A DNA stretch of 64,000 bases from Psammoneis japonica (GCA_008632985.1 QPGO01000032.1:369330-433329), one strand, 5' to 3'; positions 1-37,990 are shown, numbered from the stretch's first letter. Numbers and translations are program-made. Notes: generated from the letters alone by a model not told the origin.

Positions 1-3000
1 GTCATCATCTTTGCACTTGTGCTCTGAGGCACCTTGCTTCAACCTGGATTCTTTCATTCAGTTTGGTCACAAAATGATCCCAAGGTGAGCTTTGCTTGAT
101 TTTTCTTCTTTCAGGGAATTCCATCAACCACCAACAACTTGCCAATTGGAGCGAGCATGCACCGCGTGATGCCACTCCCCCAAACATCAAGCACACAAAA
201 AGACAAGTGATCCCATCAACTTCAAATGTTTCAACAGCTTCTTTGTGCAGCTCTTGACCATTTCTTTCTGTGCAAAACACACACAAGCTAACAGCACCTG
301 TGTCAGCTGGGTTCATTGAGATTGGAGAAGAGGCAAAGTGAGCTCCCCTCCAGAAGTCAGAAAGTCAGCAACAACATCGTCAATTCTGGTGCTCTTTGTG
401 AACTTTTGGGTGGAGAATGTTCTCCAAGATGAGGCCATTTTAGTTGCCTGTCCTTTGTGATCTGATTTGCCCAAGAGTTGTTGGCACTGCAATTGTGGTG
501 GTGAAGATGGGGGCAATGTCCCCCCAAAGCCATCGCAGTTCTTGTGCCCATTGGCTGGGAATCATGTGAAGACATGCCAACTTGCTTTTCTGGCTTTTGT
601 TGTTCCTGCCGGTGATCTGCTCTTGCCTGCTTTCTTTCCAGCCCCTGACTCTTTGATCCTTGCCTTCAACTTCTCAATCTCAGCAAACCTGACTTCTCTG
701 CCTTTTTGCCAAGCCAGGTGTCTCTTTTGTTCAGCGACCCGTCCAAAGACATTTGCCATCTGGCTCCACTTTTGATCTGGAAGACTTGCATCAAGCTGAG
801 CCACCTGCTGCAGGTGCAGGTGCAGTTGGGCATCCTTGTCTGAAGCGCCACTCTCCCAGCCTGTGTGCCATCATGAAACACAGTGGCTGATGCCAAGATT
901 TTGTTTGCCGGTGCTCATTCTCTGGAAAAATGTTCTGCTGGCATCCCTTTCACAGTTTGAGGAGTCTGGTGGGTGAGTCAAGAACCCCCCCCCCCTCTGG
1001 CACTCCAAGGGACAACCAAATGAAGAAAGTTGGCAGCAGTGTGTGCCTCCCGTCTCTCTGGCTCTGACTCTCATCTGGCTGTTGCCCACATGGGGGCAGT
1101 GCTGGCTTGGTGGAGGAGGGTTCCCCCATCTGCAGAGCCTGGGCATGCCCTCTGGTTCTGGTGCCTTTGTCTGTGTCCAGCCGTGTTTGCCTCACACAAA
1201 CAATGCAGGGGTGCCAGGCTGAACTTCGCATTTTTGACAACTCGCCTCCTGTTTGCGCCAGCTGCACATTTTCTGTGGTCACCCACAACATGCACCCTGT
1301 CATCCCTTTGAGCAAACCCACCACAGATCACCTTGTGGCAGCAAGTCAAGAGCTCTGGACAGTGCCAAAATGGGTTGTCATCGCCCTTCACACATGCCAT
1401 GATGCTGAAGATGGGATGTCTTGAGCAGGGAGCACTCTATCTTCCTGCACGTTCCTTGCAACGCATTGAGGGAAGACAAATTAAAATCCTGGTTGGATGC
1501 ACAATTTGTTCAAATGCTCGTCACCCTTGATTTTTGAGAGGTGTCAACACACCCCGCATTGAAAATGTCCATGCAATTGGGCATTCACACATTTGCACAG
1601 ACAAACACAATTTCAAATTGCCAAAATTTTGAACATAAATTTGTGTGTCCTTGAAAACACAATGCTGTGATTTTGACCCAAGAAAAACGAAAAACCATCC
1701 AAAAAGCACAAGACCATCACAATCCAAGAAGCAGCGACACCATGGCCTCAGGATCCGTTGTTTGCCGCAGATCCAGGAAAGCACTGTTTGATTTGCTTCA
1801 GCAAGTTCATTGCATCATTGTCATTGCTGTTGCAGCTGTTGAGTCTAATTCTTTGTGGTGTGCCTTTCATTTGTGCAGAGCAAAGGAGAGAGCACGCGAC
1901 GGTCAAGAGGCTTCTTTTTCGCGTGGCGTGGCCAACCTCGCTGTCAACAACGTTGCTGCCAACGGGAACACGGGAACCCAAGAAATGGAAGAAGGGGCAA
2001 GCACAGTTTGGTGTTGTCATTGCTGTTCCAGCTGTTGAATCTAATCATTTCGTTTTTGCGTGCTTTTCAATTGTGCAGATCAAAGAGGAGCAAGCGACAA
2101 CAGCCAAGAGGCTTCTTTGTCACTTGGCACAGTGCACCCCGATGCCAACAACGTCACCACCAGCAGGAGTGCTTGAACCCAAGAAGTGGCAGAGCCCTTC
2201 ATGGTGGGGGCAGTGAATGGATGTCAGGGTGAAGCGGACGAAGAGAACAATGTTGACGAAAGGAAGGGCGAAAAAGACGAGATGGCCACAACTCAACATG
2301 TCAACTGAAAGAAGCAGACAACAAGGTGAGCAACATCATGTGCACGCTGGCTTGGTTTTTCTTGGTGTGTGTGTCCTTTTCCAAGCATCCTCAACAGCTC
2401 TGCCTTTTGCGTTTCAGCGGAGCCGAGAGGAGACGATGCAATCAACTGCAAACAGGAACATTCGGCAAGTCGTCCTAAGAACAGCTCTCTTTTCCTTTTC
2501 TGGCAACTCACACCAACTGTTCTTCCCTCTTGCATGCACTGCCACAGAGCATCCGATGAGGTGCAAAAGAACAATGCATGCGACCACCATTCTTGCAGCC
2601 AGAACCACAATGAATCCTTTGCGAACAAGTCTCAGGATGATGGCGCGCACTGCAAGACGGAGACGCACCTCCAATGGGCCCAGCAGGGCAAGAAAACCGA
2701 GGAGACTTGACGATTGAAAGTTTGTTTTCTGCACTGAGAATCACGAGAAACTGCGTGGTGGAGTGCTGGTTTGTTCAATTGCACCCTTCAATTGACTCTC
2801 CATTGATGTCACAGTTGTCAGCGCCGCAGCATTTGAATGTGTTGCACCACAGTTGAGAATGATGCTCCACCAGAAACACATTCCAGGAATGGAGAGCACC
2901 GATTCCTGGTGTTCCAGAAATGGGCCATCCCCCAGAAGATTGGAGGAACCTTCAAACCCAGAAATGTGTGACAGCAATTTGGCATCCAGGAATGAAAACC

Positions 3001-3470
3001 AGTGATCTCCGAGAAGGACGACCCAGCAATTGACCCAGGAAAAGGTGAAAATTCCAGCAATGTGTCTAGCAAAACCCTGTTTCTCCAGTGATTCCTCCAG
3101 AAAACGCGCCATGCCACATCCAAAGTTACGCGCAATGAAGTGCGCGCAAAAAATCAAGAAACAGGAGGAAATTTGCTGGAACTTTCGCGTGCAGTGTTCC
3201 CCGGGATTGCCACCTTTTACCCTGCTTCATTGACCACTCAGTGGTTGGTGATTGCAGACTTTTTCATGTCGGTCCAGCAGTCGGGCAGTCGGGGGGTCGG
3301 GGGGTCGGGGGGTCGGGCAGTCGGGCAGTGGGGCAGTCGGGCAGTGGGGCAGTGGGGCAGTCGGGCAGTCGGGTTGTCCGTCTGAATTTGAAAGTGTGTC
3401 CCTTGGATTTTGAAAGGGTGTGGGTTGTTTAGTGCAGATGAATTCTTCGGATTCTTGGAATTGTCATTGA
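1..3470. repeat. TpA-depleted, CA/TG-rich degenerate domain (probably repeat/TE-derived); CpG partly retained
   Basis: Very few TA dinucleotides; overlapping ORFs are Tyr-free and Cys/His/Gln-rich; contains a ~196-bp tandem duplication (1835 vs 2031). Confidence 0.6.
3278..3373 (+). repeat. G-rich 8-9-mer tandem repeat (CAGTCGGG/CAGTGGGG/GTCGGGGG)
   Basis: Direct reading; multiple G3-G6 runs. Confidence 0.9.
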
Positions 3471-4229: not shown

Positions 4230-6350
4230 TCTGCAGCATAAAACACAAGATAAAATGTGATTGCACATGTGCAGAACACACCAGTGCAACTGATCGTTGG
4301 GCGTCAGTTGCTTTTTTGTTGTGCAACCACAAATGCAAGCCACAAAGCGCACAGCAAAGGCCAAGGCAAAAGTAGAACCACATGTGGCCAATGACAACAA
4401 TGTGTCGGATTGAACAGTCATGCTTGTTCTTTCAATTTGCACATCTTGTGTGCAGAATGAAGGGGATCGTTTGGATCACTCTTTTGTCGTGCACTCAGAA
4501 AGGCAAGCCATGAGGCGTCCAGTGTGAAGGATGAGGCAAAACAGGAACCTCACATGGTTGAAAAAAATGTGGCAGATTGATTGACAATGTTTGTTCTTCC
4601 CTTTGACCTGTCCCATGTGCAGAACACATTGCACCATTTTTTCCTTCTTGTGTCGTGTGGTCACAAATGCAAACCACAACGGCTCTAGAGCAAAGGCTGG
4701 GGCAAAAACAGAGCCGCACATGAACAATGTTGGTGTGCACGATTCAACGGTAAAGTTTGTTCTTCCCTTGCTCTGCCACAAGGGGCCGCTTTGTGTTGAT
4801 TTGTCGATGCATCCGTCATGGTCGTCGCCCGGCCAAACAAGAAAAAGGCACACCGGCCTGACCCAAATCAAACGGGAATCACCGCAATGCACTCGTTTTT
4901 TGTTCCCCTTGCAGCATGCATGCAGACAAAAGGTTGTTTTTGTCATGCCCTTTGTAACATTTAAAGGCTGCAACACGTCGCCGTGATGCATCAACTCTTG
5001 TCAGTGGCTGCACATTGCACTCCTCCTCATGTGTCGTGCGTCCATGCGGCTCTTTGCCAACGTGTGCTGACACTGCACGGTTTTGGCAGAACAGTGTGGG
5101 TACGTGCGAAGGAACACGCAGAACTGCACAGAGTTTTGCGCGTTCGACAGTGATCAACGTTGCTGCAGACAACTCCCACTCAGGGTTTCGAACCCCTGGC
5201 CTCCTGCCTGATGGTTGCGATGAACCACTCCGCTGTGAATTCACAATGCAACATGCATGCAGACAAAAGGTTGTTTTTGTCACGCCCTTTGTGACATTTA
5301 AAGGCTGTGACATGTCGCCGTGATGCATTGACTCTTGTCAGCAGCTGTGTGTTGCACCCTCCCCGAGCCCTTTCAGTCGTTCCTTCCCGCTAAATTGCCC
5401 TCATTTCCCGGGAATTCCCCAAAAGGGAAAGGCAATTCCCCCTTGCCCTTGCCATTTTGGGGAATCCCCAAACGGGCAAAATCAAACTAAGTTGGAACTC
5501 ATGGTCTCTGAAGCACCTCCTTGTCATCTGACCTCTCTCGGCACATCGTGTGGCACAGCACACTGAAGAGTTTGGAATTTTTCACATTTCGCGCACGGCG
5601 CAGCACTGTCCCCCATTTTTTTTAAATGCCCAGGTCTCCATTGAAAGGTCATCTGATCAAAGGCACTGTTCTTCACCATGCAAATCAAAACCCCTTTGAT
5701 CAGATGACATCTCAGTTGAGATCCCGCAAAGTCGCCAGCAGCTCCAATCACCCCCTCGCAGCATGACATTGTGCACATCTGCACGCGGTTTGGCATTTTT
5801 CCTTGTGCAAAATGTCAGTTGTGAATTTTGTGACATTTTCAAATGAGGAGCATTTCTGAGAGCTTTTTGCCCCCCCCCCCCCCCCCCCCCCCACAAACAC
5901 ACGCAAGCTCCCCCAGCTCTTTTTCAGTTGTTGGGAAATTCGACGAGATGTCCTTTTGCACATTGGCCGTGACTTCAGCATTGGATTCAGTGTGGAGCTG
6001 GAGCCATGCCTCAAGGACTTGTCACCCGCAGTTCCTGCATCTCGCACTTGCTCCCTCGCATGGTTGTTTGACACTCGCCACTCACCAGAGACAATGGGGC
6101 TCGGGGTTGCCGAGACATTTCACTTGAGACAAATGTGCAGCAGCAATGAAAATGCAACGAAATGATCAGGAGGAGGTCTGGGCATGATGAACCTGCGATC
6201 ATTTGTCAAAGAACAATTCGAGAGTTTTTTTTGCGACCACTGACCCCACTGCACTTCGTCAAAAACACTGGTCGATGCTCAATGCTCGTTTCTCTCTCTC
6301 TCAAAAGCAAAATCATCGTCTGTCAAGTCATTTTGAACAGCCGATTCAGC
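4230..6350. repeat. TpA-depleted degenerate domain with internal direct repeats (~4260/4612; ~4914/5254) and a poly-C tract
   Basis: gcatgcagacaaaaggttgtttttgtca...ttaaaggctg occurs twice; TA is scarce. Confidence 0.6.
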
Positions 6351-6699
6351 CTTAAGTGTTTCGAATCATTTATGTTGCACCTTTTGGTATGACAAATAAT
6401 GTTGAAAGCACGCAAATGTTGACTTTCATTCGTACGGCTGCAAGCAGTAATTGCCCAACGAGTCATTGGTGTCTGAGAACGACAGTAGACTCACTGCCCA
6501 CTTTAAGTATGACAACCACTTCGGCCACAATAAATGTTGTGTGATCACTTATCAAACGACAATTCGGAGGTTCTTGCTTGGAGACCACTAACCCCGTTGC
6601 ATTTCGCCAAACTTCTCTCACACACAAAAAACAAAATCATCGCAAAGAGAGAACACTACTTTCGAGAAACCAAAACATTGACACTTCATTAAGAGAACA

Positions 6700-9108: not shown

Positions 9109-9483
9109 TGCACTCGTGCTACCGACGTCATATAGTCCTGCGCACCAAAGCCCGTTGCATGGGGCCCTAATTGCTTTTGGTTGCAAGTGTCATGTGCTTT
9201 TCAGCCTTGCTAAGTTCTCCTCTCGACTCACAATACAAGCCAAGGTAAAAGTTTGCACAAAATTCTTCTGCAAGACTGTGTGACGCAACGACGTAAAATG
9301 GCTAGCATGAGCTTTAGAGCAGAGAGACACAAGCACAAGACAATGCAGAGCAAAAGCACTTACTTTCCGCGGTGACCAGCTAAGGCGAGATCCTGTTCAG
9401 CAGCTTCTCCACGAAACAGCGAATAAATTGCGGGCCACACAAGAAATTAAAAACTTTGTTGAGAAACAGGCATGCATGCACCC
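9109..9483 (-). pseudogene. Duplicated 3' fragment of the TPR gene at 26098-27274
   Basis: Near-identical to ~26123-26490 (offset 17006 over most of its length), with an extra ggggccc insertion at ~9161. Confidence 0.9.
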
Positions 9484-10519
9484 GGAGCCGCCCAAACCCC
9501 GTGCATCATGTCCCATCTCTGTGCCTCTCCAAAACTGTTGCCCTCCCCCGCAGCAAGCAACTCAGCCACTGTTGCCATGAGATGCAATGGAAAGGCAACA
9601 GCCATGCTCGACACTCGACAAAACCTGCACTCGCAAGGAAGGAGAAAAAGACAAACATGCCGTTAGAGTTGCAACGATTTCACGATGCTGAGATCCCCGT
9701 TGTGAAAAATTCAAAGCAACGAATCTCTTTTAAACACAACAAAGAGACGTTCCGCACCTTGGACAGCCTGGAGTGGATCCTCCTTGAAGAAACAGCAATG
9801 AGCTTGCAAACAAAACACATGGCAGCAACACAAAAATGAGCAACAAAATGATGTTTCACGACACCTGCAGAGCCGCCATCCAAGATCCAGCATGTGGGCA
9901 ACATCAACACAATGACAGAGATGCGATGCGCGGGTGCACACAAAACACATGGAAATGACCTTTCCGATGAACCCATCATGGATTTTCACAAACAAAGCTG
10001 TGCACATGTTCTTGCAATGACTGCCATCCCATCAATGCCTTGTTCGCCAGCGTTTGAGGTCAAAAGCGTTGTCAATTGCAAAACTCAGGATGAGCGGCGC
10101 AGGTGCAGCAAAAACAATTTGTGTTTTTTGCCAACGCGGAACTCTGACGTCTCCTGCACTCTGCTGCATTTGAGTCAAGTGTCACCAAAAAAATCAACTG
10201 CCGATGTCATGATGTTTTTTTGTCAAAGAGCTTGAAATCTGCTTGATCTGCTTCCACTCACCTGAGAACTGCTCATTTGCAAAAAAACAAGCTCCTTGAG
10301 TGCAAGAAAATCTGTCATGGCCACGAGCGCCAATGCGCGATGTCGAGCCCACTTCTGTGAAGAACAGGTTCCATGTGCTTGTTCTTCCTTGATGTCACGT
10401 GCGTGTGCACCGCGTGCTTGTCCCACGCTGTTGCTGATTTTTGCTTGATTTTTGTGCAAATTGCTGGCAATGTGACAATTCGTTCCAACTCAAGCTTCCA
10501 AGCAGAAGGGGGGGGGGGG

Positions 10520-13500
10520 GGGTCACAGCAACTCACAAAGAACAACACACACAGAATCCATGCATGTTTTTGTGCTGCTGTGCAATGGATGACTCTGAGG
10601 TGGTGTGTTTGTGCTGCATGAGAAAGGAGGAAAAAGTCTGCTGTGCATGTGTGTGTGAATCTTGTTGTTTTTGTCAACATGTTTTTGTCAACACAACTCT
10701 CCAAATGTTCTCTGGGTTCCATCAAAAAGACCCCCAACACCACTGTCAGTCTGCAGCTGGGTGTGTTGGCAGGCCATGCCAGTTTGTCCTTTCACTCTAG
10801 AGATGGGAGAGCTTGAAGTTGCTCTCACTCTCTTTTCTGGCTGGGCAATGAAGAAACTTGGCTCCAGCCACACACAACTGCACCAGATGGGCCTCACAGT
10901 GCTCAACCACAGCTCTCATCTCCATGGGTCCACAGCAACCCATGAAGAACAATGCACAAAGAATCCATGCACGTTTTTGTGCTGCTGTGCAATGGATGAT
11001 TCTGAGGTGGTGTTCATGCTGCACGAGAAAGGAGGAAAAAGTCTGCTGCATGTGCGTGTGTGAATCTTGTTGTTTTTGTCAACACAATTCTCTGAATGAT
11101 CTCTGGGTTCCATCAAAGGCCCCCAAAACACTGCCATCAGTCTGCAGCTGGGTGTGTTGGCAGGCCATGCCAGTTTGTCCTTTCACTCTGGAGATGGGAG
11201 AGCTTGAAGTTGCTCTCACTCTCTTTTCTGGCTGGGCAATGAAGAAACTTGGCTCCAGCCACACACAGCTGCACCAGATGGGCCTTGCAGTGCTCAACCA
11301 CAGCTCTCATTTCTGTGGATTCTGCCAGAGAGTTCACCAACATTCTCAGTCTGCAGATGATGTCTTTGTTGGTTGCGTTGTCATTTGCTTTCACTCTCTG
11401 GAGTTGCAAGCCCCCCAGCTCTGTGTTGGGCCAAGTGATGGGCATTGCAGCACTCAGCCACATTTCTCAAAGTGTTCCCTGGGCTCCACCAGAGACCATC
11501 ATCATTGCTCTCATCCTGCAGTTGTTGTGCTGATTGATTGCACATCAGGGTGTCAATTCCCACTTGAATGTGGGAATTTCAGTTCTGGCTGTGGCATGAA
11601 TGAGAAACAACTGCTGGCTCCTTGCTGCTGCCCAAGATGAGTGCATCGCTCAACCACATTTCTCAAAGTGTTTCTTCCCCTGGAAGAGACCTCAAAGTCT
11701 CTCAGCCTGCAGCTGTTGGGCTGGTTGGTTGCATCAGGGTGTCCCATCCCATCACTCTGGAGTCAGGAATTTCAGCTCACTCTTGCATGGACAAAGTGAC
11801 TTGGGGGTGCAATTGCAGCCAATGAGCCATGTGACTCTCAACCGCTGCTCTCATGTTGCTTTCCAGACAACCCTGGGGACCTGTGATGCCCTCAAACTGC
11901 ACTTGTTTGGTTGGTTGGTTGGTTGCACAATTGTGTGTCCTTTCTCTCTGCAGCAGTTGGAATTTCAGGTCTCACTCTGGCATGCACTCAGTGAGTGGGG
12001 GTTGCATCTGGGCCACGTGTTGGTTGTTGCACCACTCTGCCACCAACCTCAACATGTTCCCTGGGTTCCAACTGAGATCTTCAATGCTCCAAGCTTGCAG
12101 TTGTTTGCTGGTTTGTTGCATGAGAGTGTCCTTTCACTCTGGAGTCAGGAGTTTCAGCTCTCAATCTGGCATGGATGAAGTGACAGGTGGCTGCAACTGC
12201 ACCAGATGATCCTTCTTGCAACACTCCATTGCCATTCTCAAAGCTTTCCCTGGGTTCCTTTGAAGACCTTCAAGGCCATCAGCATGCAATTGTTGGGTCA
12301 GTTGGTTGCATCTGAGCATTCTTTCTCTGGAGTGTCAGGAGTTGCTCTGCGCTCACTCTGGCATGCACCCAGTGCCTGGTGGCTGCAAATGCACCAGATG
12401 AGCCTTCTTGCAACACTCCGCTGCTGTTCTCAAAGTGTTCCATGGGGTCCTCTGAGACCTTCAATGCCCTCAGCATGCAGCTGTTGGGTTGGTTGCTTGC
12501 ACCAGGGTGTTCTTTCTCTGAGGATTCAGGAGTTTTTCTGCTCTCTCTCTGATGGCAGGTGTTGAGTGTCTGGTGGCTGTAAATGCACCAGATGGGCATT
12601 GCAACACTCCACTGCCACTCTCAAAGTGTTCCCTGGGTCTCTCTGAAGACCTTCAATGCCCTCAGCGTGCAGCCATTGGGCTGGTTGTTTGTTCTTTCAG
12701 GGTGTCCCATCACATCACTCTGGAGTCAGGAATTTCAGCTCACTCTTGCATGGACAAAGTGACTTGGGGGTGCAATTGCAGCCAATGAGCCATGCAACTC
12801 TCAACCGCTGCTCTCATGTTGCTCTCCAGACAACCCTGGGAACCTTTGATGCCCTCAAACTGCACTTGTTTGGTTGGTTGGTTGCACAAGTGTGTGTCCT
12901 TTCTCTCTGCAGCAGCTGGAATCTCAGGTCTCACTCTGGCATGCACTCACTGAGTGGGGGCTGCATCTGGGCCACATGTTTGTTGTTGCATCACTCTGCC
13001 ACCAACCTCAACATGTTCCCTGGGTTCCAACTAAGATCTTCAATGCTCTGAGCTTGCAGTTGTTTTGCTGGTTTGTTGCATGAGGGTGTCTTTTCACTCT
13101 GGAGTCAGGAGATTCAGCTCTCAATCTGGCATGGATGAAGTGACAGGTGGCTGCAACTGCACCAGATGAGTCTTCTTGCAATGCTCCACCACTGTTCTCT
13201 AAGTGCTCCATGGGTTCCTCTGAAGACCATCAATGCCCTCAGCATGCAGCTGTTGGGTTGGTTGCTTGCATCAGGATGTTCTTTCTCTGAGGAGTCAGGA
13301 GTTGTTCTGCTCTCACTCTGGCATGCATTGAGTGTCTGGTGGCTGCAAATGCACCAGATGGGCATTGCAACACACCACCACCACTCTCAAAGTGTTCCCT
13401 GGGTCTCTCTGAAGACCTTCAATGCCCTCAGCATTCAGCTGTTGGGCTGGTTGTTTGTTTGCATCAGGGTGTTCTTTCTCTGAGGAGTCAGGAGTTTTTC

Positions 13501-15610
13501 TGCTCTCACTCTGGCATGCATTGAGTGTTTGGTGGCTGCAACCATGCCAGATGGTCCTTGCAACACTCCACCACCATTCTCAAAGTGTTCCCTGGGTGCC
13601 TCCAAACAACTTCAATGCCCTCAGCATGCAATTGTTGGGTTGGTTGTTTGCATCTGGGTGTTCTTTCACTGTTGATTTGGGAATTTTCTGCTCTCACCAT
13701 TTTTCCATTTAGTGTTTGGTGGCTGCAGCCGCACCCCAGATGGGTGTCCCAACACTCCACCACCACTCTCAAAGTGTTCCCCGGGTGCCTCCAAACAACT
13801 TCAATGCCCTCAGCATGCAGTTGTTGTCTTGGTTGTTTGCATCTGGGTGTTCTTTCACTGAGGACTCAGGAGTTTCTGCTCTCACCATGTCATGGATCAT
13901 GTGTCTGATGGTTGCAACCGCACCAGATGGGTGTTGCAACACTCCACCACCACAATGCTTTCAGCATGCAGTTGTTGTGGCTTGGTTGTTTGCATCAGGG
14001 TGTTCTTTCACTGTGGATTTGTGAGTTTCTGCTCTCACCATGTCATGGATTGAGTGCCTGGCAGCTGAAACTGCACCAGATGGGCATTGTGACACTCCAC
14101 CACTGTTCTCAAAGTGTTCCCTGGGTCCCTCTGAAGACATTCAATGCCCCCAGCATGCAGTTGTTGGGCTGGTTGTTTGCATCAGGGTGTCATTTCTCTC
14201 AGGAGTCAGGAGTTCTTCTGCTCTCACTCTGGCATGCATTGAGTGTCTTGCAGCTGCAACTGCACCAGATGGGCCTTGCAACACTCCACCACCACTCTCA
14301 AAGTGTTCTCTGGATGCCTTTGAAGAACTTCAATGCCCTCAGCATGCAGTTGCTGGCTTTGTTGTTTGCATCAGGGTGTTCTTTCACTGTGGATTCAGGA
14401 GTTTCTGCTCTCATCACTCAGCATTCAGCTGTTGGGCTGGTTGTTTGTTTGCATCAGGGTGTTCTTTCTCTGAGGAGTCAGGAGTTTTTCTGCTCTCACT
14501 CTGGCATGCATTGAGTGTTTTGCAGCTGCAACTGTGCCAGATGGTCCTTGCAACACTCCACCACCATTCTCAAAGTGTGCTCCCTGGGTGCCTCCAAATG
14601 ACTTCAATGCCCTCAGCATGCAATTGTTGGGTTGGTTGTTTGCATCTGGGTGTTCTTTCACTGTTGATTGGGGAGTTTCTTCTGCTCTCACCATGTCATG
14701 GATTGAGTGTTTGGTGGCTGCAGCCGCACCCCAGATGTGTGTTCCAACACTCCACCACCACTCTCAAAGCATTTCCCGGGTGCCTCCAAATGACTTCAAT
14801 GCCCTCAGCATGCAGTTGTTGGGTTGGTTGCCTGCATCAGGGTGTTCTTTCTCTGAGAAGTCAGGAGTTTTTCTGCTCTCACTCTGGCATGCATTGAGTG
14901 TCTGGTGGCTGCAACCGCACCAGATTGGCCTGGCAACACTCCACCACCATTGTTTGCATCAGGGTGTTCTTTCACTGAGGATTCAGGAATTTCTGTGCTC
15001 TCACCATGTCATGGATTAAGTGACCGGTGGCTGCAGCTGCACCAGATGGGCCTGCTGGCAACACTCCACCACTGTTCTCAAAGTGTTTCCTGGGTTTTTC
15101 TGAAGACCTTCAATGTCCTCAGCGTGCAGTTGTTGGGCAGGTTGTTTTCATTGGGGCGTTCTTTTGCTGTGGATTTAGGAGTTTCTGCTCTCACCACTTT
15201 TAATGGGCCAAGCAACCGGTGGTTGCAGCTGCGCCAGATGGGCCTGGCAACACTCCACCACCATTCTCAAAGCATTCCCTGGGTTCCTCCAAAGACCTTC
15301 AATGCCCTCAGCATGCAGTTGTTGGGATGTTTGGTTGCGCTGGGGTGTTTTTTCACTGTGGAGGAGTTGGGGGTTTCAGCTCTCACCATGGCATGGATCA
15401 AGTGACTGGGGGTGCAAGTGCTCCAGATGAGCCCTTCAACACCCACCCACCCCATTCTCAAAGGTGGGAGACCTTCAGTGCCCTCAGCATGCAGCTGGGT
15501 GGTTGGTTGGTTGCGTCAGGATGCTCTTTCACTGGTGGCTTTGTCCAGCACAGCTGCGCTGGGCAAGTCTTGCAACTTGCAACTCTCAACTGCTGTTCTC
15601 AAGTGTTCCC
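10520..15610. repeat. Tandem satellite, ~190-193-bp monomer, with ~410-bp and ~964-bp higher-order duplications
   Basis: Recurring gcaacactccaccacc..ctcaaagtgttccctggg..cttcaatgccctcagcatgca at ~12218, 12410, 12601, 13367, 13560, 13750 etc. Confidence 0.9.
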
Positions 15611-18600
15611 TGGCTTCCAAATGACAAACCGCCAAGCAAATTCTGGTGTGTCATGTGGAGTTTGGTGTGCTGTTGCATGTTGGACATTGGCGACATGACA
15701 GTTGGGGCTTGGACAACTGATGTGACATGGTGTTGGAGGGAAGCTTGATGGGTCATCCTCCAATGGCACTCACTTGTTGCAAGTGGTCGCAACAGGCCTC
15801 AGAGTGTCTTTGGGATCATTGTGTTGTTGTCATGCCAGCACTGTGAGTGGCTGAGTGATCCTCACACAGAGCTGGATTTGTTCAATTTTTGCTGCCCAGC
15901 ATGACATTTGATCACACTTGCATTGCAACATTTGTTTCATTTGTCCTGACGAACAAAAATCAAAAATGGGTCAAGCACAAATGAAAGCAGAACAAAGTGC
16001 AAAAAGTGAAAATTCATGAGATTAGATTTTGCTCAATCATTTTGGGTTTCTCTGAACAAGTTCTCAATCATGGCCCAAAGCTTCTGCACTGCTTCCACAG
16101 ACCAAATGTCTGCAACATGTTTCCGTGCTTGACAAGAGTGCAACTTGTCAATGACTGAAATTTTTCACATGCGTGCTGATTGCATGCACAGATCTTCAAC
16201 ACACACAATTGTCAATTTTGTTTCTTGGCACACAAACAAACAAATCTTTTTTGCTTGTTTTAAGCCACCTGTGTGGCTCATTCTGTCCACATTTCAAACA
16301 CTTGTCAAGAACAGTTTCACTTTCCCCCCTTCCATTTGTCAGATCCATGCCTTTGTTTGAGTTGCCTGTTTGGCTCACACAAGTGTTTTCTCTGTGTGCT
16401 GCAGTTTGCCACTTGCAGAGCAAAAATGAGTCTTTGACCAATGCAGCAGCTGCAAAATCAATTCTGTGATGTGCTTGTTGAGTGCAAGACCCAGACAAAC
16501 AACCCAGGTGAGAGTGAACAATTGCTTGTTGCCACAGTGTCTCTTGAAAATGATGTGAATGTCACTCAATGCATTGTTCATGCAGCGTGGCACCACACAG
16601 GTGCAGTCTCATTTCAGTTCGGAAGAAGGGTGGGTTCCAGTTTTGGGTGGTTGAGATCCACACTTGTGAGCAAAAAAGAAAAAAAAGAATGGACAATGTG
16701 CACCCTTGGTGTGACACAATCATCTTGTCAATGATGTGAGCCATGCTCACAGATGTTGAACAGATGGTTGTGGGTCTGGAACATCTTTTTGGAAGCCAGT
16801 TTTGGATGCTGCCTTTTGGGGAGCAACTGGCAAAAGGACACAGGTGACTTCAACTGTTTTCATGGGTGCCGCCAACTTCTGTTGTGTGCAAGTGACACTC
16901 ACAGGGTGTGGTGCAACAGTGAGGGGGTTGTTGCAGGTGTTTCATCATCCTGCTGTTTGACATGATGACTGCACTCATTCTGGCTGGTGCAAGGGACTCT
17001 TGGGGCTTTGTTTGTCTTTCTTGATTGTTTTGTCCCATTTCAACAACTGCGTCATTCAACAACAATGACAGGTGCACTGGACTGGGCATTTCAGTGAAAA
17101 AACAGACATTGATGCATGTGTTTTCTTGGCATGCTGGAGTTTGCCAGTTCAAACTGTCGTGGCATGTTGCGTCTCCTCAAGGTCATGGCGCACAGCTCCC
17201 AGTCACAATTGGCTGTTGACAGCACTGGTCCACACTGCTTTGTCAAATTGCCCATCAAAAAATCCATTCTCATCATGGCAGCAATGATTTCCAGTGCTGC
17301 TTGGAGCCTTGCAGAGAGAGCTGCCTGCACACACCAAGTTCCAGATCAATCCTGCTGTCAAGCTTGAATGTTGCCAGTTGCATTTGTTGACTCTTGCCAT
17401 TTGTCACATTCAATGTCCTTCCACACAGCAGATGCTTCCTGCACTGTTGCAAAGCCTTCAATCCACAATGTCAACAAACTGCACATCATTCCGTGTGAGC
17501 AAATGATGAAAATGGTTGTCCAACAGAAGTGTTCTGGCCAGCTGTCATCAATTGCCTGTCTCACTGGCAGCATTTTTTACAGTTTGATCCCAATCTCAGA
17601 AGCGCTGTCTGCTTGAAAATGCCTCTTCCCAGACAATGTGAACAGTTTGAGCTGTGCTCTGAATTGACTTGGTTGGAGCTGGCATGTTCACATGATCCAA
17701 GGTCCAACTGCCCACAGCTCCTCAGGAACTCGCACAAATTTTTGACACCTGATGACTGCACAGGATTGTCTCATGCAGCATTAGAAGGTGTTGTTTGAGC
17801 CATTGATTGAAACTTTTGGATGGTTCAATGCAGACATTCAGTTGATTTGATTGTCACAAATGATCATGACAAGCAAGGATTGCTTGTGTTTTTGACATGG
17901 AAAACAAAACCAAAGAAAGATCTGGTGCCTTTCTGCATCATCTTTGTTGAATGTGCCATCCAAGTCATGGGTGTCTGCAGAGTGCATTCCACTTTAGACC
18001 TTCAAAACATTTGCTGCAGCATCCAATGCAGAAGAAACAAAGATGTTGAGTGAAAAGTTCAGATGATGATCAAAGACATTGAATGAAGATGCCTTTCTTT
18101 GGGACACCCACCTTGTGATCACAATGACATTTCAACATGCTCTCCAGGTGTTTCTTGCACTTGGCGGCAACTGTTGCCACCACCGCAACTGATCCCATGA
18201 TCAACTTGAGTTGCATTGCTTGCATGTCTGCATTTTGGAAAGAAAAAGAATTGATTTTATGGGTTGTGAGCGTTTTTGTCAAAAACCACAGCAATGGCCG
18301 CACGGACATGGCCCAAAAGCATCATGTTGAGTCACCTGTGTGGCTCATTTTGTCCTCATTTTGAACTCTTGTTAAGAACAGCTTTGTTTGTTTTTTTCCT
18401 TCACACGTCAGATCTCTGCCTTTGCTTTAGTTGCCTGCATGGCTCATTTTGTCCTCATTTTAAACCTCTCAAGAACAGCTTCATTTGTCTCCTTTTCCCT
18501 CCATTTTGTCAGCTCTCTGCCTTTGCTTTGCTCTGTCTCTGCTGCACCTGTCCTTTTTTCCTGCTGGGCACTGCACAACTCATCCTCTGATCTGACATCC

Positions 18601-19419
18601 ACCAACAACAATGGCGTGCCTCTGTCACAATCCACCTTGTTGTCCTGGTTGGATGTGTGACAATGACACAACAACAACAGCCGTGCTCTCCAAAGACATT
18701 TTCTCAAAGGCATCTCCAGTGCTCTTCTTTCTCCATTTTGGCCTGAACCCTGATGATGACTTTGAGAAGCACACCCCCAGTGCTGCAGGAAGAGAAGCTT
18801 GGATGCAAACTTGCCAAGGGATGGTCTTTGCATCTCATGAAGCAAGCAATGGCACACCTGCTTGGAAAGCCAGCCACTGCCAGATGACAGAGACTGGGAA
18901 GATTGTCTCATCTTCTTCCCTGTCACCATCACCACAAAGGAAGACAATGACCAGAGTTCATCAGCCACACATCCTCAGTTCCAAGGGGTTCATTCTGGCA
19001 TTGAGTTTGATGACATGTCTTGGTGTCTTCTCCAATTGGAGCAACAGGCTTGCCAAGTGGATGGCGCATGATGCACAGGACAACACCACTTGAGAAGCTA
19101 AAATGGAGCATGTGGTGGTGTCCTCATGTCCCAGCAAACATTTGCCAAATGCCAAGCCAGATCATCATCATTGCCACAAATGCACATTGGTTTGACTTGC
19201 TGCCTGCATGACATGCAACCCAAATGCACTCAGAGTCCAGTTGATGAGTGGCCCAATTGTGATGTCTTTGCTCTCTTGATTTGGGAAGCTGCCAGCCTTG
19301 TCTTGGGCAGCAGCATCCCCTTGCATGATTCCTCCACAAACAAGAAGATGCCCAGCTGTGCAAGGTGTGGAAGCATGAGGCCCACAGAGGATGTGGCAAA
19401 GGAGGTGTGCAGTTGTCTT

Positions 19420-20630
19420 GGGATGGAATTGGAGGACTCCAGTGGGTTGCCAGGGACATGCCAACAACCATGGTTGGGGAGCAGCAAATGCCTTGACTTG
19501 TGTCAATGCAGCACCTTGTCTCTCTGACATGACTGGCTTTGGCCCAGCCAGCCAACCTGCAGAGACAATGGAAACATCTGTGCAACAGCACAAGTGCTCC
19601 ATTGTCTTGGGGGGTGACATTGGATGACTCAGTTGGGTCCCAGAGGATGCAATGACAAAAATGGTTGGGAAGCAAAGGCCTTGTCTTGTGTCAATGCAGT
19701 CCTTTGTCTCTCTGACATGAATGGGTTTGGCCCTGCCCACCCACCTGCAGAGACAAGAAAACCATCTGTGCAACAGTGCAAGTGCTCAGTTGTCTTGGGA
19801 CGGCTTTTGGCAACTCCATTGGATGATCCCAGAGAAGCCAACAACAACATTGGCTGGGAAGCAAAGGCCTTGGCTTGTGTCAATGCAGCCCTTTGTGTCT
19901 CTCTGACATGACTGGCTGGGTTTGGCCCCGCCACCCCACCTGCAGAGACAAGAAAACCATCTGTGTGCTCAGCTGCATTGGGGTTCTTTTGGCGACTTCA
20001 TTGGATCACAGAGGACACAGCAACAATGGCTGGGAAGCACATGCCTTGTCATCTTGTGTCAATGCAGCACCTTGTCTCTCTGACATGACTGGGTTTGGCC
20101 CAGCCAAGAACCAATTTGCAAGAAAGAAAGGGATCCATCTGCGCAACAGCGCAAGTGCTCAGTTGTCTTGGGATGGCTTTTGGTGACTCCGTTGGATCCC
20201 AGAGGAGCCAACAACAACAACGGCTGGGAAGCACATGCCTTGTCTTGTGTCAATGCAGCACCTTGTCTCTCTGACATGACTGGGTTTGACCAAGCCAAGA
20301 ACCAACTTGCAAGAAAGACAAGGGAGCCATCTGTGTGACAGCACAAGCACTCAGTTGTCTTGGGATGGGCACAAAAAACTTCATTGGGTCCCAGAGGAGG
20401 CAAGAACAACAATGGTTGGGAAGGAAAAGCCTGATCTTGGGCCAACACAGCTGCTTTTCTGTCTGATGTGATTGGCTTGTTGCTTTGGCCCAGCCACCTC
20501 ACCTGTGGAGACAAGGGAGCTTTCTGTGCCGTGTTGCAGTGCAAGTGCACAGTTGTCTTTGGACAGCCTTGCTTGGGTGCCTCCAAAGTGTCCCAGAAGA
20601 GCCAACAACAACCAGGACAGGGAATCACTG
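19420..20630. repeat. Tandem repeat, ~189-bp monomer, ~6 copies
   Basis: ttgtgtcaatgcagc..tgtctctctgacatga at ~19499, 19687, 19876, 20055, 20245. Confidence 0.9.
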
Positions 20631-23600
20631 AATGGAAATTCACAGTGTTCCCTGTCTCTCATTTGGGCGGAAAACCAAGAAAGAGCAGAAGAGCAAGACC
20701 CACCTTCAAGTTGCCCACTTTCTTTACAAGGTTGGTCTCCAAAGTTTTCATTTCACTGGCATGAAGGGTCTGTTTTTAAGCTTTCTGGAGAGAGGCAATT
20801 GTTTTGTTGGCAGCGGCAATTTTTGAACACACCAAATGGCAAAAAGGTGTTGATTGAGGTCCCGGAGCTGGGAGTGTGCAGCATGAGTGTGAAAATTGTT
20901 TCAATCTTCCAAGAACACATTGATGCAATAAAATCAAGATTTTTGAATGCATGTGTGACATTGGTGACTAGCTGAATGATTCGTCGAGGCAGTTTCAGAT
21001 CATTCAAGCCATCGTGTTGCAATGAAATCATTGACTTTTAAAACAAAGTCATTGCTGAAGACGAGATGCCAACAGGAAGAATCAACTGATGGTCAGGCTC
21101 GCATTTTGGCCAAAAACATGAATGGTCACTCCCTCACAAGACACAAAAATTGCAAACTCAAGTTGCATCCGACATCTGACAATGAGAGCAGTGGGGACAG
21201 GCAGTGGCATTGCGGATGGGACAGAATAAAATGCAGGACACAAGGTGAGAAAAACAAGTGGCAAAGGCATGGGGATCGGGTGTGCAGTGCAAACATCTGA
21301 CACTTGTGCACATCTTTGCATGCAGACGTCTGGACATGCAACCAAGGGCACAAAGGTGGCAGAAGCAGCACACAAGATGAGATTGCAAGAAAAACAAGAA
21401 ATGCACAAAACCTGGTCATTGGCACAAAGAGTTTTCTCTTGTTGCAGGCAACGCTTTGGCCTGCCAAACAGAAAGAGCACAGGGTGGATCATTGCAGAAT
21501 GATGTTGTTGCCTGCTGGTCCAGACGATTGTGAAGAGAGCAAGAGTGGTTGCAAGGGAGGACCAAAACACCACACCCATTGTGTGGAAACTGTGAAGGAC
21601 AACAGGAACTGGTGGAATGCAGGAGAAAAGAAGAATGGGAGGAAAAAGGGAGCACTGTTTGGTGTGCAGTGTAGAAATGACAAAAAAGAACATTTGCAAA
21701 TGAGATGACAAGCAGCACACAGCCAATGCACAATCAGGTCAAGAAGACAAATGAACATTGTGAACACATGGTTGTTGAGAAAGAAACAAGTGCAAGTGAC
21801 AAGTTTCACTGAGTGTCATTTCCTGCCTGGAAGGTCAGCCCAATTGTGGACAGACACACAAAAACAATGTCAAAACAGGCAGACATGAAAAATTGACAAG
21901 ATGTGTGTGTGATGTAACTGATTTGCACCAACCATTAAATCCCACTTGAAAGGTTCAAACAATGATTAAACTCCCTTTGTCAATGACTGTCAAGGACTTG
22001 TCAAGAACACATGATTCTGAACAAGAGAACATGAGTTCTGAACAAGAGCCACAACATTTTCCAGACAAAGGCATTTCAAAGAACACAATCATGACAACAG
22101 ATTGCCTGGATGTGACTGCAATTGACACACAAGATGTCAACATTGTCAAGTGGCTGCATTTGCAATTTCCAACATCCAATCCATCAATTCTGTGTGACTG
22201 ATCTGCCCTTCATGTGAACCCACAATTGATGTGTGATTGAAGTGCAACAATGTCAAAACACATGTGCACACACAAAATGTGCGTGACAGTGCACATTGCA
22301 ACAAAACAGCCACCTGGAAAAGGTTTGAAATCTTGATGTTGAGCATTTTTTAAAAGACAACAGCTTGCAGCTGTGAGAGAAATGTGCACAATTCAACAGA
22401 TGTCATTGGCACCTCAATCCTGTGCTCAGATGCTTGCACAGAAAAAAGTGAGAGATGGCACGTGACGCTCACACATTGTTTGCCTCTTTCTCTTCACAAG
22501 GATCGTTGCAAACACAAAGAGATTGAAGATCTGAAAGATCAGCAGTCAGCCCAAGATGCTGCTGGGAAGAAGACAATGACAATCTTCACACTGAGATCCC
22601 ACCCTTTAGAATCTGCACTTGTTTTTGAGGGGCTTGAAAAAATCTGCACCTGCTCCAAACAGAAATCTGGAATCTGCACCCCAGCGCAAATGTGTGCTGG
22701 ATGTGCACAGAACATGCCAGGCCCACCTGGGAAAGGGTTCTTCAAATCCAACAAAACCCAGTGCCATTTTCAACAGAGAATCAGCACAAATGTCTAGAAT
22801 CCTTGAAAATGTGCACCCGCTCCAAACCAAAATCTGGGGTGCAGATTTTCTGTGATGATCAGGGTGCATGGATCCCATGTTTTGTGATGTCTGCCGCGGC
22901 GCTGCACAGTGCTTTTTGGGCACAACTGTCAGCAATGAAGCCCTGGCAAGCACCGCCACAATGCAAAACACTGCTCATTGCAATGCACTGGTGGCCATTG
23001 TTGACAACAGACAATGCAGGTGGCCAGAGAAACCTCAAGGAGCTCCATGTTGACAAGTGCATCTGTTGGACAACTTTCTCCCAACTTGGGCTTGTTGTGA
23101 ACTCTGTTGGACAGAATGTGCTCGTGGAACAAGAGACCATGAAAGCTTGTCTCTTTGTCCTTGAGAGTTGAGAGTGTGTTCCCCAGCGACATTTGCCTCA
23201 CTCATTGCATGCAACAATGCAGTGTTTTGAGTGTTTTGGCAACTGTGGGCTCTGCTGCCTGCAGCCAGATGAGCCAGCCACTGGACAAACACACTGCGCC
23301 AGTTGCAACTTGCTTGCACCCAGCAAGTCATGACAATCAAATTTCCACATCCAGTGACATGGTCCCCAATGGTGCATGCCTCACTCATCCAATGACACAG
23401 TGTTCAATGTGCTCCAGTGATCAGGCTTTGGACAATCTGCTGCCAGATGAAAGTGCAATGTCAAAACAAACTGCACAGCAAATCGCGGCAATTGATTTTT
23501 CCTTGTCTGGTTTTCTCATCTTTTCTCATCCAAGGAAATTCAGGGCCAAGTGAGAAAAAGCTGCAACAGAAAACCCTGGAGACAGATGATCTTTTAGAGA

Positions 23601-37860: not shown

Positions 37861-37948
37861 TCCTCTAGAAAGGGGGAAGTGGAGACCAACGCTGTGCCAT
37901 CTCAACGAGGCGTTCGACGGGGGCTCGTCATGATTGTCGAGTGCCCGT

Positions 37949-37990
37949 TGAATGAATGAATGAATGAATGAATGAATGAAAATGAATGAG
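37949..37990 (+). repeat. (TGAA)n microsatellite
   Basis: Direct reading. Confidence 0.95.

What the first reader, a model, noticed from the sequence alone, without database searches (positions are those of the whole stretch)
9190..9483. Directional TAY->TGY (RTA->RCA) mutagenesis captured in a duplicated gene fragment: candidate 'reverse-RIP' genome-defence system
Seen: 9190-9425 aligns with the intact TPR gene (offset 17006) with 12 substitutions by eye. Seven destroy a TpA: 9196 TAC>TGC, 9258 ATA>ACA, 9278 TAT>TGT, 9306 GTA>GCA, 9330 ATA>ACA, 9357 GTA>GCA and 9401 GTA>GCA. All seven are A>G in 5'-TAY, on either strand. About four more follow at 9435-9480 (e.g. catatacc>catgcacc), just before the fully depleted domain starts. 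The CpGs in this segment are retained, so 5mC deamination does not explain it. Known: fungal RIP runs the other way (CpA>TpA), and TadA-derived DNA adenine deaminases prefer TA/TAC contexts. Inference: a repeat- or heterochromatin-targeted A>G process (an adenine deaminase, decay of a modified base, or biased T:G repair) that spreads over domain edges.
Basis: partly seen in the sequence, partly recalled or inferred. Interest (0 to 1): 0.95.

Follow-up and report, generated by a model that had tools for sequence, protein, structure and literature searches.

The report
TpA-erasing hypermutation at diatom repeat domains
A copied piece of an ordinary gene lying against a block of repeats in a diatom genome has had about half of its TA steps rewritten to TG or CA. 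It marks the edge of a process that has removed nearly every TA from 44% of this window, a kind of targeted mutation first reported in 2026 in an unrelated alga and whose enzyme is still unknown.

Summary
Window 9109-9483 is a 93% copy of the 3' end of an expressed, conserved TPR gene (26123-26490). Of 22 parental TpA, 10 are CpA/TpG in the copy, all at or beyond 9190. Two differences run the other way, and 15 of 15 CpG are kept. Diatom orthologues polarise 3 of 3 testable sites: the gene holds the ancestral state.

The fragment abuts a 14.5-kb repeat domain that is almost TpA-free. Five such domains cover 28.4 kb (44%) of the window. In them TpA o/e is 0.04 against 0.61 outside, CpA/TpG 1.8, CpG 0.22, and G+C is unchanged. 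Edges are sharp (under 250 bp).

Surviving TpA follow a model in which each strand is hit independently, with rates TAT > TAC > TAG > TAA (about 7:5:2.5:1). The older flanking part of the same duplication shows no such bias, so position next to the domain matters, not duplication.

TpA-only A:T>G:C hypermutation of silent inserted DNA was shown by mutation accumulation in Bigelowiella natans (bioRxiv 2026). This window comes from a diatom, for which eight searches found no report. It is a new member of a known kind; the enzyme is unknown.

The parts
9109..9483 (-). Pseudogene fragment: a copy of the last two exons and the intervening intron of the TPR gene. It is 93.4% identical to the parent over 361 aligned bases, and an 8-bp insert near 9160 breaks the frame.
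   Evidence: translations aligned to orthologues
9190..9483. Zone of partial TpA conversion. Ten of 19 parental TpA are now CpA/TpG: RTAY sites 6 of 7, one-sided TAY sites 4 of 8, YTAR sites 0 of 4 (class counts for 9190-9483 taken from the per-site list plus the two sites). All CpG are kept. The 3 TpA in 9109-9189 are unconverted.
26098..26490 (-). Parent: 3' end of a conserved diatom TPR-domain gene. The terminal exon ends at the stop at 26098-26100 and runs to 26281. The GT-AG intron is 26282-26369 and the upstream exon 26370-26440. It is transcribed and spliced in a contig of run X2.
   Evidence: (Fistulifera solaris homologue with PF07719)
1..3429 (.). Domain D1: TpA o/e 0.05, CpG only partly lost (o/e 0.41). 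It runs off the window start.
4374..6352 (.). Domain D2: TpA o/e 0.07, CpG largely kept (o/e 0.62).
9449..23957 (.). Domain D3 (14.5 kb): 35 TpA (o/e 0.04), CpG o/e 0.16, CpA 1.87, TpG 1.80. Its content is repeated elsewhere in the genome, and no Pfam family is found in six frames.
9449..10450 (.). Shoulder of D3 that is already TpA-free but keeps normal CpG density (8-11 per 250 bp).
11437..15534 (.). Array of roughly 189-194-bp tandem repeats inside D3 (17 units aligned). Unit lengths are not multiples of three.
19378..20510 (.). Second roughly 189-bp tandem array, a different family. It has the highest summed contig depth of the stretch laid.
35784..38082 (.). Domain D4: TpA o/e 0.03, CpG o/e 0.27. 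It holds the window's two N (35986, 36843).
56758..62933 (.). Domain D5: TpA o/e 0.02, CpG o/e 0.08. It contains the longest TpA-free run (2709 bp, 59100-61809).

Best explanation
The window comes from a diatom whose repeat-rich, presumably silent chromatin domains undergo a DNA-level, TpA-specific transition process. In it, TpA becomes TpG when the A of one strand changes and CpA when the A of the other strand changes. The two strands of a TpA are hit independently. The rate depends on the base 3' of the A: TAT > TAC > TAG > TAA. The process is confined to domains with sharp edges but reaches about 300 bp beyond the repeats. The gene fragment at 9190-9483 is neutral DNA with a known ancestor that happens to lie in that fringe, so it records the process half-way. 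A second, slower and separable process, most simply deamination of methylated CpG, removes CpG from the same domains. Because both processes end in CpA/TpG, G+C does not move. SHOWN: the direction of change, the dinucleotide and trinucleotide specificity, the domain structure, the dependence on position rather than on duplication, and the decoupling from CpG loss. INFERRED: that the domains are heterochromatin, that the event is enzymatic and occurs on DNA in situ (by analogy with the de novo mutations seen in Bigelowiella natans), and that the chemistry is adenine deamination to hypoxanthine. I hold that last step at about 0.4; it cannot be told from T-directed chemistry by sequence alone.
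For: (1) Polarity. At the three exonic sites where a TA change alters the protein (9258 Tyr>Cys, 9196 Tyr>His, 9401 Thr>Ala), the parent gene and all 3 orthologues share the residue and the copy differs.
(2) Specificity in the fragment. Ten of 22 parental TpA are converted against 2 reverse cases, and 15 of 15 CpG are kept. By class, 6 of 7 RTAY sites, 4 of 11 one-sided sites and 0 of 4 YTAR sites are converted, and all 4 one-sided conversions lie on the TAY strand.
(3) Position. The older part of the same duplication (8372-9110) has 0 lineage-specific TA>CA/TG changes.
(4) Domains. The five domains total 28,390 nt. They hold 69 TpA (o/e 0.04) against 1523 (o/e 0.61) in the other 35,608 nt. 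CpA and TpG are 1.83 and 1.79 against 1.16 and 1.20. G+C is 0.486 against 0.472. TpA-free runs reach 2709 bp, whereas the chance of 1 kb without TpA at the outside density is about 3e-19. Edges fall within one 250-bp bin.
(5) Kinetics. Survival is 48 of 233 expected for YTAR, 20 of 657 for one-sided and 1 of 328 for RTAY (Fisher p=1e-18). A four-parameter strand-independent model fits all ten context classes (X2=4.0, 6 df, p=0.68) and beats a context-free model (p=3e-24). The products TGY and RCA are enriched more (1.67x, 1.75x) than TGR and YCA (1.38x, 1.34x).
(6) Post-amplification hits. Columns holding both CA and TG among repeat units number 27 of 86 and 13 of 67. Other double-transition pairs give 0-15 of 16-86 and 0-6 of 7-58.
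(7) Separable from CpG loss. D1, D2 and 9449-10450 are TpA-free with CpG o/e 0.41-0.62 or normal counts.
(8) Not a consensus error of this assembly. Contigs built from run X1 match TpA-free stretches with 0 differences (10040-10463, 17304-17821, 22040-23798), and one contig spans the D3 right edge (23949-24695).
(9) Precedent. In B. natans mutation-accumulation lines, 230 of 231 mutations in two silent viral inserts were A>G or T>C, all at TpA (Results section of the preprint).
Against: The fragment alone is modest evidence: 10 against 2 gives p=0.039, and only 3 sites are polarised by outgroups. For the saturated domains no unmutated reference copy exists, so ancestral TpA is inferred from composition. 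The survival model also assumes that the domains once had the TpA context spectrum of the gene-rich part of the window. The CA/TG co-occurrence excess is only about 2-3 fold, and alignment noise contributes to it. All read support comes from one sample (X1-X3 share a sample and study), whose sequencing platform is not on record. There are no methylation, chromatin, expression or de novo mutation data for this organism, and no genome is held, so no enzyme could be sought. Unlike B. natans, the targets here show no viral or transposon protein signature.
Confidence: 0.8

Rival explanations
1. Same targeted process, but the chemistry acts on the thymine. The T of RTA would be modified (for example hydroxylated to 5-hydroxymethyluracil, or further modified) or mis-repaired in T:G intermediates, giving T>C. 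The A>G changes are then the view from the other strand.
For: Sequence cannot distinguish A>G in 5'-TAY from T>C in 5'-RTA. The palindromic TpA target and the strand-symmetric products (CpA 1.83 against TpG 1.79) fit either reading. From recall, not from any call here: 5hmU in dinoflagellates is enriched at TpA. A search listing only shows a 5hmU mapping paper for Breviolum.
Against: No thymine hydroxylase or 5hmU is on record for diatoms in what I searched. The only experimental precedent (the B. natans preprint, Discussion) proposes A-deamination, also without proof.
Confidence: 0.2
2. RNA-level editing. Double-stranded RNA from the repeats is hyper-edited A>I, and the edited sequence returns to the genome by reverse transcription or RNA-templated repair.
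For: Both strands are affected and only A>G/T>C is seen. A 5' U preference is known for ADAR, as stated in the preprint's Discussion.
Against: The intron of the captured gene fragment is converted like its exons, in place, next to the domain, while the rest of the duplication is not. The tandem satellite arrays and the sharp domain edges are not retro-copies. The 3' preference T>C>G>A does not match the 3' G preference I recall for ADAR (recalled, not tested). ADARs are, from recall, restricted to animals. In B. natans the mutations arose in situ in a single-copy insert.
Confidence: 0.04
3. Nothing targeted. The fragment shows ordinary pseudogene drift, and the domains are repeats with an intrinsic or selected TA- and CG-poor composition.
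For: The direction test on the fragment alone is weak (p=0.039). UpA under-representation is general; it is 0.61 even in the gene-rich part.
Against: TpA o/e of 0.02-0.07 over 28 kb of unrelated repeat families is far from the general level. A fitted two-strand kinetic pattern among survivors, CA/TG polymorphism among repeat units and outgroup polarity also argue against it. In 338 kb around ERG24 homologues in 70 metagenome loci, no locus with G+C below 0.63 has a 500-bp window with 2 or fewer TpA.
Confidence: 0.03
4. Artefact. A base modification at TpA (and CpG) in these domains makes the sequencing chemistry or the polishing step miscall the bases.
For: All supporting reads come from one sample whose platform is not on record. 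The window has two isolated N.
Against: Word-depth contigs (about 55-80x) rebuilt from the run reproduce the TpA-free sequence with 0 differences and bridge a domain edge. The changes are clean transitions that alter conserved codons in a copy while the parent 17 kb away reads normally. Partial, context-ranked conversion is not what I expect of a miscall.
Confidence: 0.03

Closest known systems
TpA hypermutation of integrated viral DNA in Bigelowiella natans (Mettrop et al., bioRxiv 10.64898/2026.01.13.699255; I read the abstract, Results and Discussion and ran term finds; its supplements are closed)
   Same: Only TpA is hit, giving TpG or CpA depending on the strand. Changes are almost only A>G/T>C. 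The process is confined to particular genomic regions. The long-term trace is TpA depletion with CpA+TpG enrichment in clusters of 1-kb windows. [quoted passage not shown]
   Different: The lineage differs: a diatom (stramenopile) rather than a chlorarachniophyte (rhizarian). The targets here are multi-copy satellite-like repeats without viral or transposon protein signal. Erasure is near-complete (o/e 0.04 against 0.45 for their NCLDV insert). CpG loss coincides, which their text never mentions (0 occurrences of 'CpG'). A 3'-neighbour hierarchy and a roughly 300-bp fringe into flanking DNA are seen here; their main text has 0 occurrences of 'context' or 'trinucleotide'. No de novo rate is available here.
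Repeat-induced point mutation (RIP) of fungi
   Same: A dinucleotide-specific, transition-only, saturating mutagenesis that wrecks repeated DNA and leaves a diagnostic dinucleotide skew, with leakage into neighbouring unique DNA (established knowledge; search listings).
   Different: The direction is opposite: RIP makes TpA from CpA, and this process destroys TpA. The mutated base is A/T, not C/G. Duplication is not the trigger here, since the parent copy and the older duplicated part are untouched. Dependence on a meiotic stage and on RID-type enzymes is untestable here.
Decay of methylated CpG to TpG/CpA in silenced repeats
   Same: It explains the CpG o/e of 0.08-0.27 in D3-D5 and ends in the same CpA/TpG products.
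   Different: It cannot remove TpA. The fragment keeps 15 of 15 CpG while losing 10 of 22 TpA. TpA-free stretches with normal CpG exist.
Nucleic-acid adenosine deaminases (bacterial TadA, eukaryotic ADAT2/3, animal ADAR) and TadA-derived adenine base editors
   Same: A>I is read as G. U/T lies 5' of the target A. The natural TadA target is, from recall, U-A-C in the anticodon loop, which resembles the TAY preference found here. The preprint names an ADAT2 homologue as its candidate.
   Different: No protein of this organism could be examined. Known cellular enzymes act on RNA. ADAT2 is universal in eukaryotes, so its presence explains nothing specific. The 3' order T>C>G>A has not been compared with any enzyme here.
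Polymerase eta 'WA' hotspot mutagenesis in patch repair (somatic hypermutation phase 2; recalled)
   Same: A>G at TA motifs. It could be recruited by G:T mismatches from 5mC deamination in the same domains.
   Different: WA includes AA, yet ApA is not depleted (o/e 1.28 in domains against 1.17 outside). Transversions at A are not enriched. TpA loss occurs where CpG is intact.

Membership tests
TpA-targeted A:T>G:C hypermutation (as described in Bigelowiella natans) | Mutations fall on TpA and give TpG or CpA | tested here: met
   Ten of the 27 differences in 9109-9483 are parental TpA>CpA/TpG (24 differences, three more at 9478, 9479 and 9483). Domains hold 69 TpA against about 1214 expected from the outside density, with CpA/TpG at 1.8.
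TpA-targeted A:T>G:C hypermutation (as described in Bigelowiella natans) | Direction is A/T to G/C (TpA ancestral) | tested here: met
   Three of 3 protein-altering sites are polarised by 3 orthologues. The count is 10 forward against 2 reverse.
TpA-targeted A:T>G:C hypermutation (as described in Bigelowiella natans) | Confined to discrete genomic regions, with the rest of the genome ordinary | tested here: met
   Five domains have edges within 250 bp. The older duplicated segment outside the fringe has 0 such changes.
TpA-targeted A:T>G:C hypermutation (as described in Bigelowiella natans) | Targets are of foreign (viral or transposon) origin | tested here: inconclusive
   There is no credible Pfam family in six frames of D3 or in 57 ORFs of D1, D2, D4 and D5. 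The sequences are multi-copy repeats. Their origin is unknown.
TpA-targeted A:T>G:C hypermutation (as described in Bigelowiella natans) | Elevated de novo rate measured in mutation-accumulation lines | not testable with these tools
   Only one sample holds the sequence, and no genome is held.
Fungal RIP | C:G>T:A transitions, typically CpA>TpA, raising TpA | tested here: not met
   The polarity is opposite.
Fungal RIP | Triggered by sequence duplication, with both copies mutated | tested here: not met
   The parent copy keeps the ancestral residues and is expressed. The 83%-identical older part of the duplication is unaffected.
5mC-deamination CpG decay | Loss of CpG to TpG/CpA | tested here: met
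   This holds for the domain cores only: CpG o/e 0.08-0.27 in D3-D5. It is not met in the fragment, where 15 of 15 are kept. Methylation itself was not testable.
Adenosine-deaminase (TadA/ADAT/ADAR-like) editing | A deaminase with a CDA-fold active site acting on the substrate | not testable with these tools
   No proteome of the organism is available. Only the A>G outcome and the T-A-Y context are compatible.

The most novel reading that the evidence does not exclude
Diatoms possess the same TpA-editing genome defence as chlorarachniophytes. On this reading it is old and widespread in the SAR supergroup rather than a curiosity of one alga. It would be a heterochromatin-coupled DNA adenine deaminase with a TadA-like T-A-Y preference that acts on each strand independently. 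It would work faster than CpG decay, so TpA-free shoulders with intact CpG mark newly silenced DNA, and it would spread about two nucleosomes beyond its target. That would make it a second, independent eukaryotic 'mutate-the-invader' system beside RIP and APOBEC, with an A-directed chemistry for which I know of no natural DNA precedent.
Probability: 0.35. Interest if true: 0.9.

Novelty: new member of a known kind. Interest (0 to 1): 0.74.

Why it matters
Targeted hypermutation of unwanted DNA is known from fungi (RIP, C>T) and animals (APOBEC, C>U; ADAR on RNA). An A:T>G:C counterpart restricted to TpA was first shown in 2026 in one rhizarian alga, and no enzyme has been identified.

Finding its saturated footprint in a diatom has four consequences:
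- It shows the process is not a peculiarity of one species or of giant-virus inserts.
- It places the process in a group that, from recall, includes genetically tractable species.
- It gives a quantitative substrate rule (TAT>TAC>TAG>TAA, strands independent) against which candidate deaminases or thymine-modifying enzymes can be tested in vitro.
- It shows how the process relates to CpG decay and to domain edges.

In practice, TpA-free/CpA+TpG-rich domains are a simple sequence-only marker for silent chromatin in such genomes. They also warn gene finders, because these regions give long spurious ORFs without Tyr codons.

Tried and rejected
- Whole genome: none is held, so genome-wide spectra and enzyme searches were impossible.
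- Earlier notes of this scan: nothing by place, words or sequence.
- Runs: one holder (X1) plus two runs of the same sample. No RNA holder is listed.
- Rfam: 0 matches.
- Pfam on ORFs of 150 aa or more in the domains, on six read-through frames of D3 and on 57 stop-to-stop ORFs of D1, D2, D4 and D5: nothing credible. The SMK1, DUF483 and Colicin_V hits score below their cut-offs. The PRC2_EED_ins hit (26.8 bits against a cut-off of 27) lies on a poly-Asn run and is rejected as low complexity.
- Purine/pyrimidine 36-mer matching, meant to find heavily transition-mutated copies of the window's normal DNA inside the domains: none apart from the known fragment and the tandem units.
- Degenerate repeat pattern in metagenome contigs: 0 hits.
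- Seventy metagenome loci around ERG24 homologues (338 kb): no TpA-free domain. These are gene-rich contigs, so the result serves only as a compositional control and is no evidence about relatives.
- The 384-aa ORF family (24463-25617 and paralogues): no Pfam family and no homologue.
- My hand reading suggested an alternative splice acceptor in the TPR gene. One search showed that the RNA-supported junction keeps the conserved frame, so I dropped the idea.
- Polymerase-eta WA mutagenesis and GC-biased conversion were considered and set aside. ApA is not depleted and G+C is unchanged.

Full report
**1. The observation**

Window 9109-9477 aligns to 26123-26484 at 93.4% identity over 361 bases. 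Inside 9190-9425 there are 12 substitutions. Seven of them (9196, 9258, 9278, 9306, 9330, 9357, 9401) change a TA of the 26-kb copy into TG or CA. One more lies at 9438, and two more lie at 9478 and 9479, just beyond the local alignment.

In all, 10 of 22 TpA of the 26-kb copy are CpA/TpG in the 9-kb copy. Two sites differ the other way (9131, 9448), and all 15 CpG are shared. Substitutions are enriched at TpA nucleotides: 8 of 34 against 14 of 254 in 9190-9477 (p=0.0016). The direction test gives 10 against 2, p=0.039. Taken alone this is suggestive, not overwhelming.

**2. What the two copies are**

The 26-kb copy is the 3' end of a real gene on the minus strand. A contig of run X2 joins 26281 to 26370. 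This removes a GT-AG intron (26282-26369) and keeps an open frame that ends in ...LAEEFYANFYLGLYCESRGELSKAEKYMTLA....

That peptide finds three 230-269-aa proteins at 66-67% identity. One is from the diatom Fistulifera solaris and carries a TPR Pfam domain.

The 9-kb copy is a dead fragment (exon, intron, exon) with a frame-breaking 8-bp insert. Where TA changes alter the protein, the orthologues decide the polarity. At Tyr>Cys (9258), Tyr>His (9196) and Thr>Ala (9401), the gene and all three orthologues agree and the fragment is the odd one out. So TpA is ancestral and CpA/TpG derived.

**3. The organism**

An ERG4/ERG24 exon (47061-47909) has diatoms as its best named relatives: Odontella aurita 76%, Stephanodiscus 72%, Cyclostephanos 70%. 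Nothing exceeds 77% among listed proteins or 81% among metagenome loci. With the Fistulifera hit, the window comes from a diatom that is not itself in the protein collection. It is not Bigelowiella natans.

**4. The larger structure**

The fragment is the fringe of something much bigger. In 1-kb and 200-bp bins the window falls into two states. Five domains total 28,390 nt (44%): D1 1-3429, D2 4374-6352, D3 9449-23957, D4 35784-38082 and D5 56758-62933.

| Measure | Five domains (28,390 nt) | Rest of window (35,608 nt) |
|---|---|---|
| TpA count | 69 | 1523 |
| TpA o/e | 0.04 | 0.61 |
| CpA o/e | 1.83 | 1.16 |
| TpG o/e | 1.79 | 1.20 |
| CpG o/e | 0.22 | 0.93 |
| G+C | 0.486 | 0.472 |
| ApA o/e | 1.28 | 1.17 |

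TpA-free runs reach 2709, 1782 and 1626 bp. At the outside density, 1 kb without TpA has a probability of about 3e-19. TpA density steps from about 10 per 250 bp to 0-1 within one bin at all nine edges.

As a composition control I used 338 kb from 70 metagenome loci around ERG24 homologues. No locus with G+C below 0.63 holds a 500-bp window with 2 or fewer TpA.

D3 consists largely of two families of roughly 189-194-bp tandem repeats. It has no protein-family signal in any frame. Its sequences are multi-copy in the genome: summed contig depth reaches about 2600 against about 65 for unique stretches.

**5. Is the depletion mutational?**

Three lines of evidence say yes.

First, polarity in the fragment (section 2).

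Second, among aligned repeat units, columns that hold CA in some units and TG in others are the commonest double-transition class. They number 27 of 86 and 13 of 67 columns, against 0-15 of 16-86 and 0-6 of 7-58 for the other classes. This is expected if ancestral TA or CG were resolved independently after amplification. The excess is only 2-3 fold, and alignment noise contributes.

Third, the few surviving TpA are not random. Call a TpA 'RTAY' if the A of both strands is followed by a pyrimidine, 'one-sided' if this holds for one strand, and 'YTAR' if for neither.

| Class | Surviving TpA | Expected from outside spectrum | Survival |
|---|---|---|---|
| YTAR | 48 | 233 | 21% |
| One-sided | 20 | 657 | 3.0% |
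| RTAY | 1 | 328 | 0.3% |

These differ with Fisher p=1e-18.

I then fitted a Poisson model in which each strand's A is lost independently, at a rate set only by its 3' neighbour. It fits all ten context classes (X2=4.0, 6 df, p=0.68). The rate-times-time values are TAT 3.36, TAC 2.40, TAG 1.21 and TAA 0.48. The model beats a context-free model at p=3e-24.

The half-converted fragment shows the same ranking: RTAY 6 of 7, one-sided 4 of 11 with all four on the TAY strand, and YTAR 0 of 4. The products TGY and RCA are more enriched than TGR and YCA.

One caveat applies. The model assumes that the domains began with the TpA context spectrum of the gene-rich part of the window.

**6. Position, not duplication**

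The fragment is the tail of a longer and older duplication. In it, 8372-9110 matches 24589-25737 at 83%, and there are further paralogues at 6890-8140 and 45530-46680. A four-way alignment gives 0 lineage-specific TA>CA/TG changes in 8372-9110. The three TpA in 9109-9189 are also unconverted.

Conversion starts near 9190, about 290 bp before the repeats, and the parent copy is untouched. The process therefore follows the domain and its fringe, unlike RIP, which follows duplication.

**7. Relation to CpG loss**

CpG is nearly gone in D3-D5 (o/e 0.08-0.27). It is much better kept in D1 (0.41) and D2 (0.62). It is at normal density in the first kilobase of D3 (8-11 per 250 bp), although all of these stretches are TpA-free. 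The fragment has lost TpA but no CpG.

The two losses are thus separable, and TpA loss is the faster. The simplest reading is ordinary decay of methylated CpG superimposed on a distinct TpA process. Methylation itself was not testable here. Because one process raises and the other lowers G+C, base composition hides both.

**8. Artefact?**

Contigs rebuilt from run X1 have word depth of about 55-80. They match TpA-free stretches without a single difference (10040-10463, 17304-17821, 22040-22651, 22624-23039, 23014-23798). One contig crosses the right edge of D3 (23949-24695). The runs come from one sample, possibly the one that was assembled, and their platform is not on record. This rules out a polishing error but not every chemistry-specific miscall. 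Clean, context-ranked transitions in a pseudogene whose parent reads normally make an artefact unlikely.

**9. What is known**

Eight full-text searches were run. They found one relevant work: Mettrop et al., bioRxiv 10.64898/2026.01.13.699255.

- In mutation-accumulation lines of the chlorarachniophyte B. natans, 231 of 302 nuclear point mutations fell in two integrated viral regions.
- Of these, 230 were A>G or T>C, and all of those were at TpA.
- The rate was about 6e-7 per site per generation, 1000-fold above background.
- The authors propose A-deamination and name an ADAT2 homologue, without proof.
- Their text contains no 'CpG', 'context', 'trinucleotide' or 'diatom'.

No search returned a report of this signature in diatoms. 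This holds for the searched library only.

**10. Mechanism and rivals**

My best account is a DNA-level, domain-targeted, strand-independent change at TpA. I favour adenine deamination at about 0.4. Thymine-directed chemistry is an equally sequence-compatible rival at about 0.2.

- RNA editing followed by retro-copying is unlikely. The intron and exons are converted in place, the fringe is positional, the targets are satellites, and the 3' preference does not resemble what I recall for ADAR.
- Polymerase-eta WA mutagenesis is disfavoured, because ApA is not depleted and TpA is lost where CpG is intact.
- GC-biased conversion is disfavoured, because G+C is unchanged.

**11. Verdict**

The phenomenon is striking: 44% of the window is stripped of TpA. 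It is not categorically new, because the kind of process was described in 2026 in another lineage.

What is new here:
- the lineage (a diatom);
- the saturated state on cellular repeats rather than viral inserts;
- the 3'-neighbour rate hierarchy with independent strands;
- the roughly 300-bp fringe recorded in a datable host-gene fragment;
- the demonstrable decoupling from, and precedence over, CpG decay.

The enzyme, the targeting signal and present-day activity remain open.

Noticed in passing
window 6788-8017, 8381-8881, 24463-25617, 45436-46215 (+ strand): This is an orphan ORF family with three long copies and one truncated copy in 64 kb, at 65-84% nucleotide identity. It has no Pfam family and no homologue among 6694 word-sharing candidates. 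It seems to be a lineage-specific, locally duplicating gene.
   Followed up: partly
window 48600-48760 (1-kb bin 48001-49000): This is the opposite extreme of composition: TpA o/e 1.33 and CpG 0.55. A CTAG-rich 44-bp tandem repeat sits in the intergenic space next to the ERG24 gene.
   Followed up: no
window 3277-3373: A (GCAGTCGG)x12 microsatellite sits exactly at the right edge of domain D1.
   Followed up: no
window 11437-15534 and 19378-20510: Both satellite families have a unit of about 189-194 bp. That is close to a nucleosome repeat length, so the unit may be related to phasing in silent chromatin.
   Followed up: no
window 35986 and 36843: The only two N of the window are single ambiguous bases inside domain D4. 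They could be heterozygous or copy-variable sites in a repeat.
   Followed up: no
all TpA-free domains, e.g. 14040-14897, 61935-62669: With TAA and TAG gone, only TGA stops remain. The domains are therefore full of overlapping ORFs of 100-285 codons, in several frames and without any Tyr, which could be a trap for gene prediction.
   Followed up: partly
window 9820-10483 (read laying tables 2 and 7, run X2): Short contigs of the RNA-like run X2 lie partly on the TpA-free shoulder of D3 and continue into unlike, TA-containing sequence. They may be transcripts of an unmutated relative of this stretch elsewhere in the genome.
   Followed up: no
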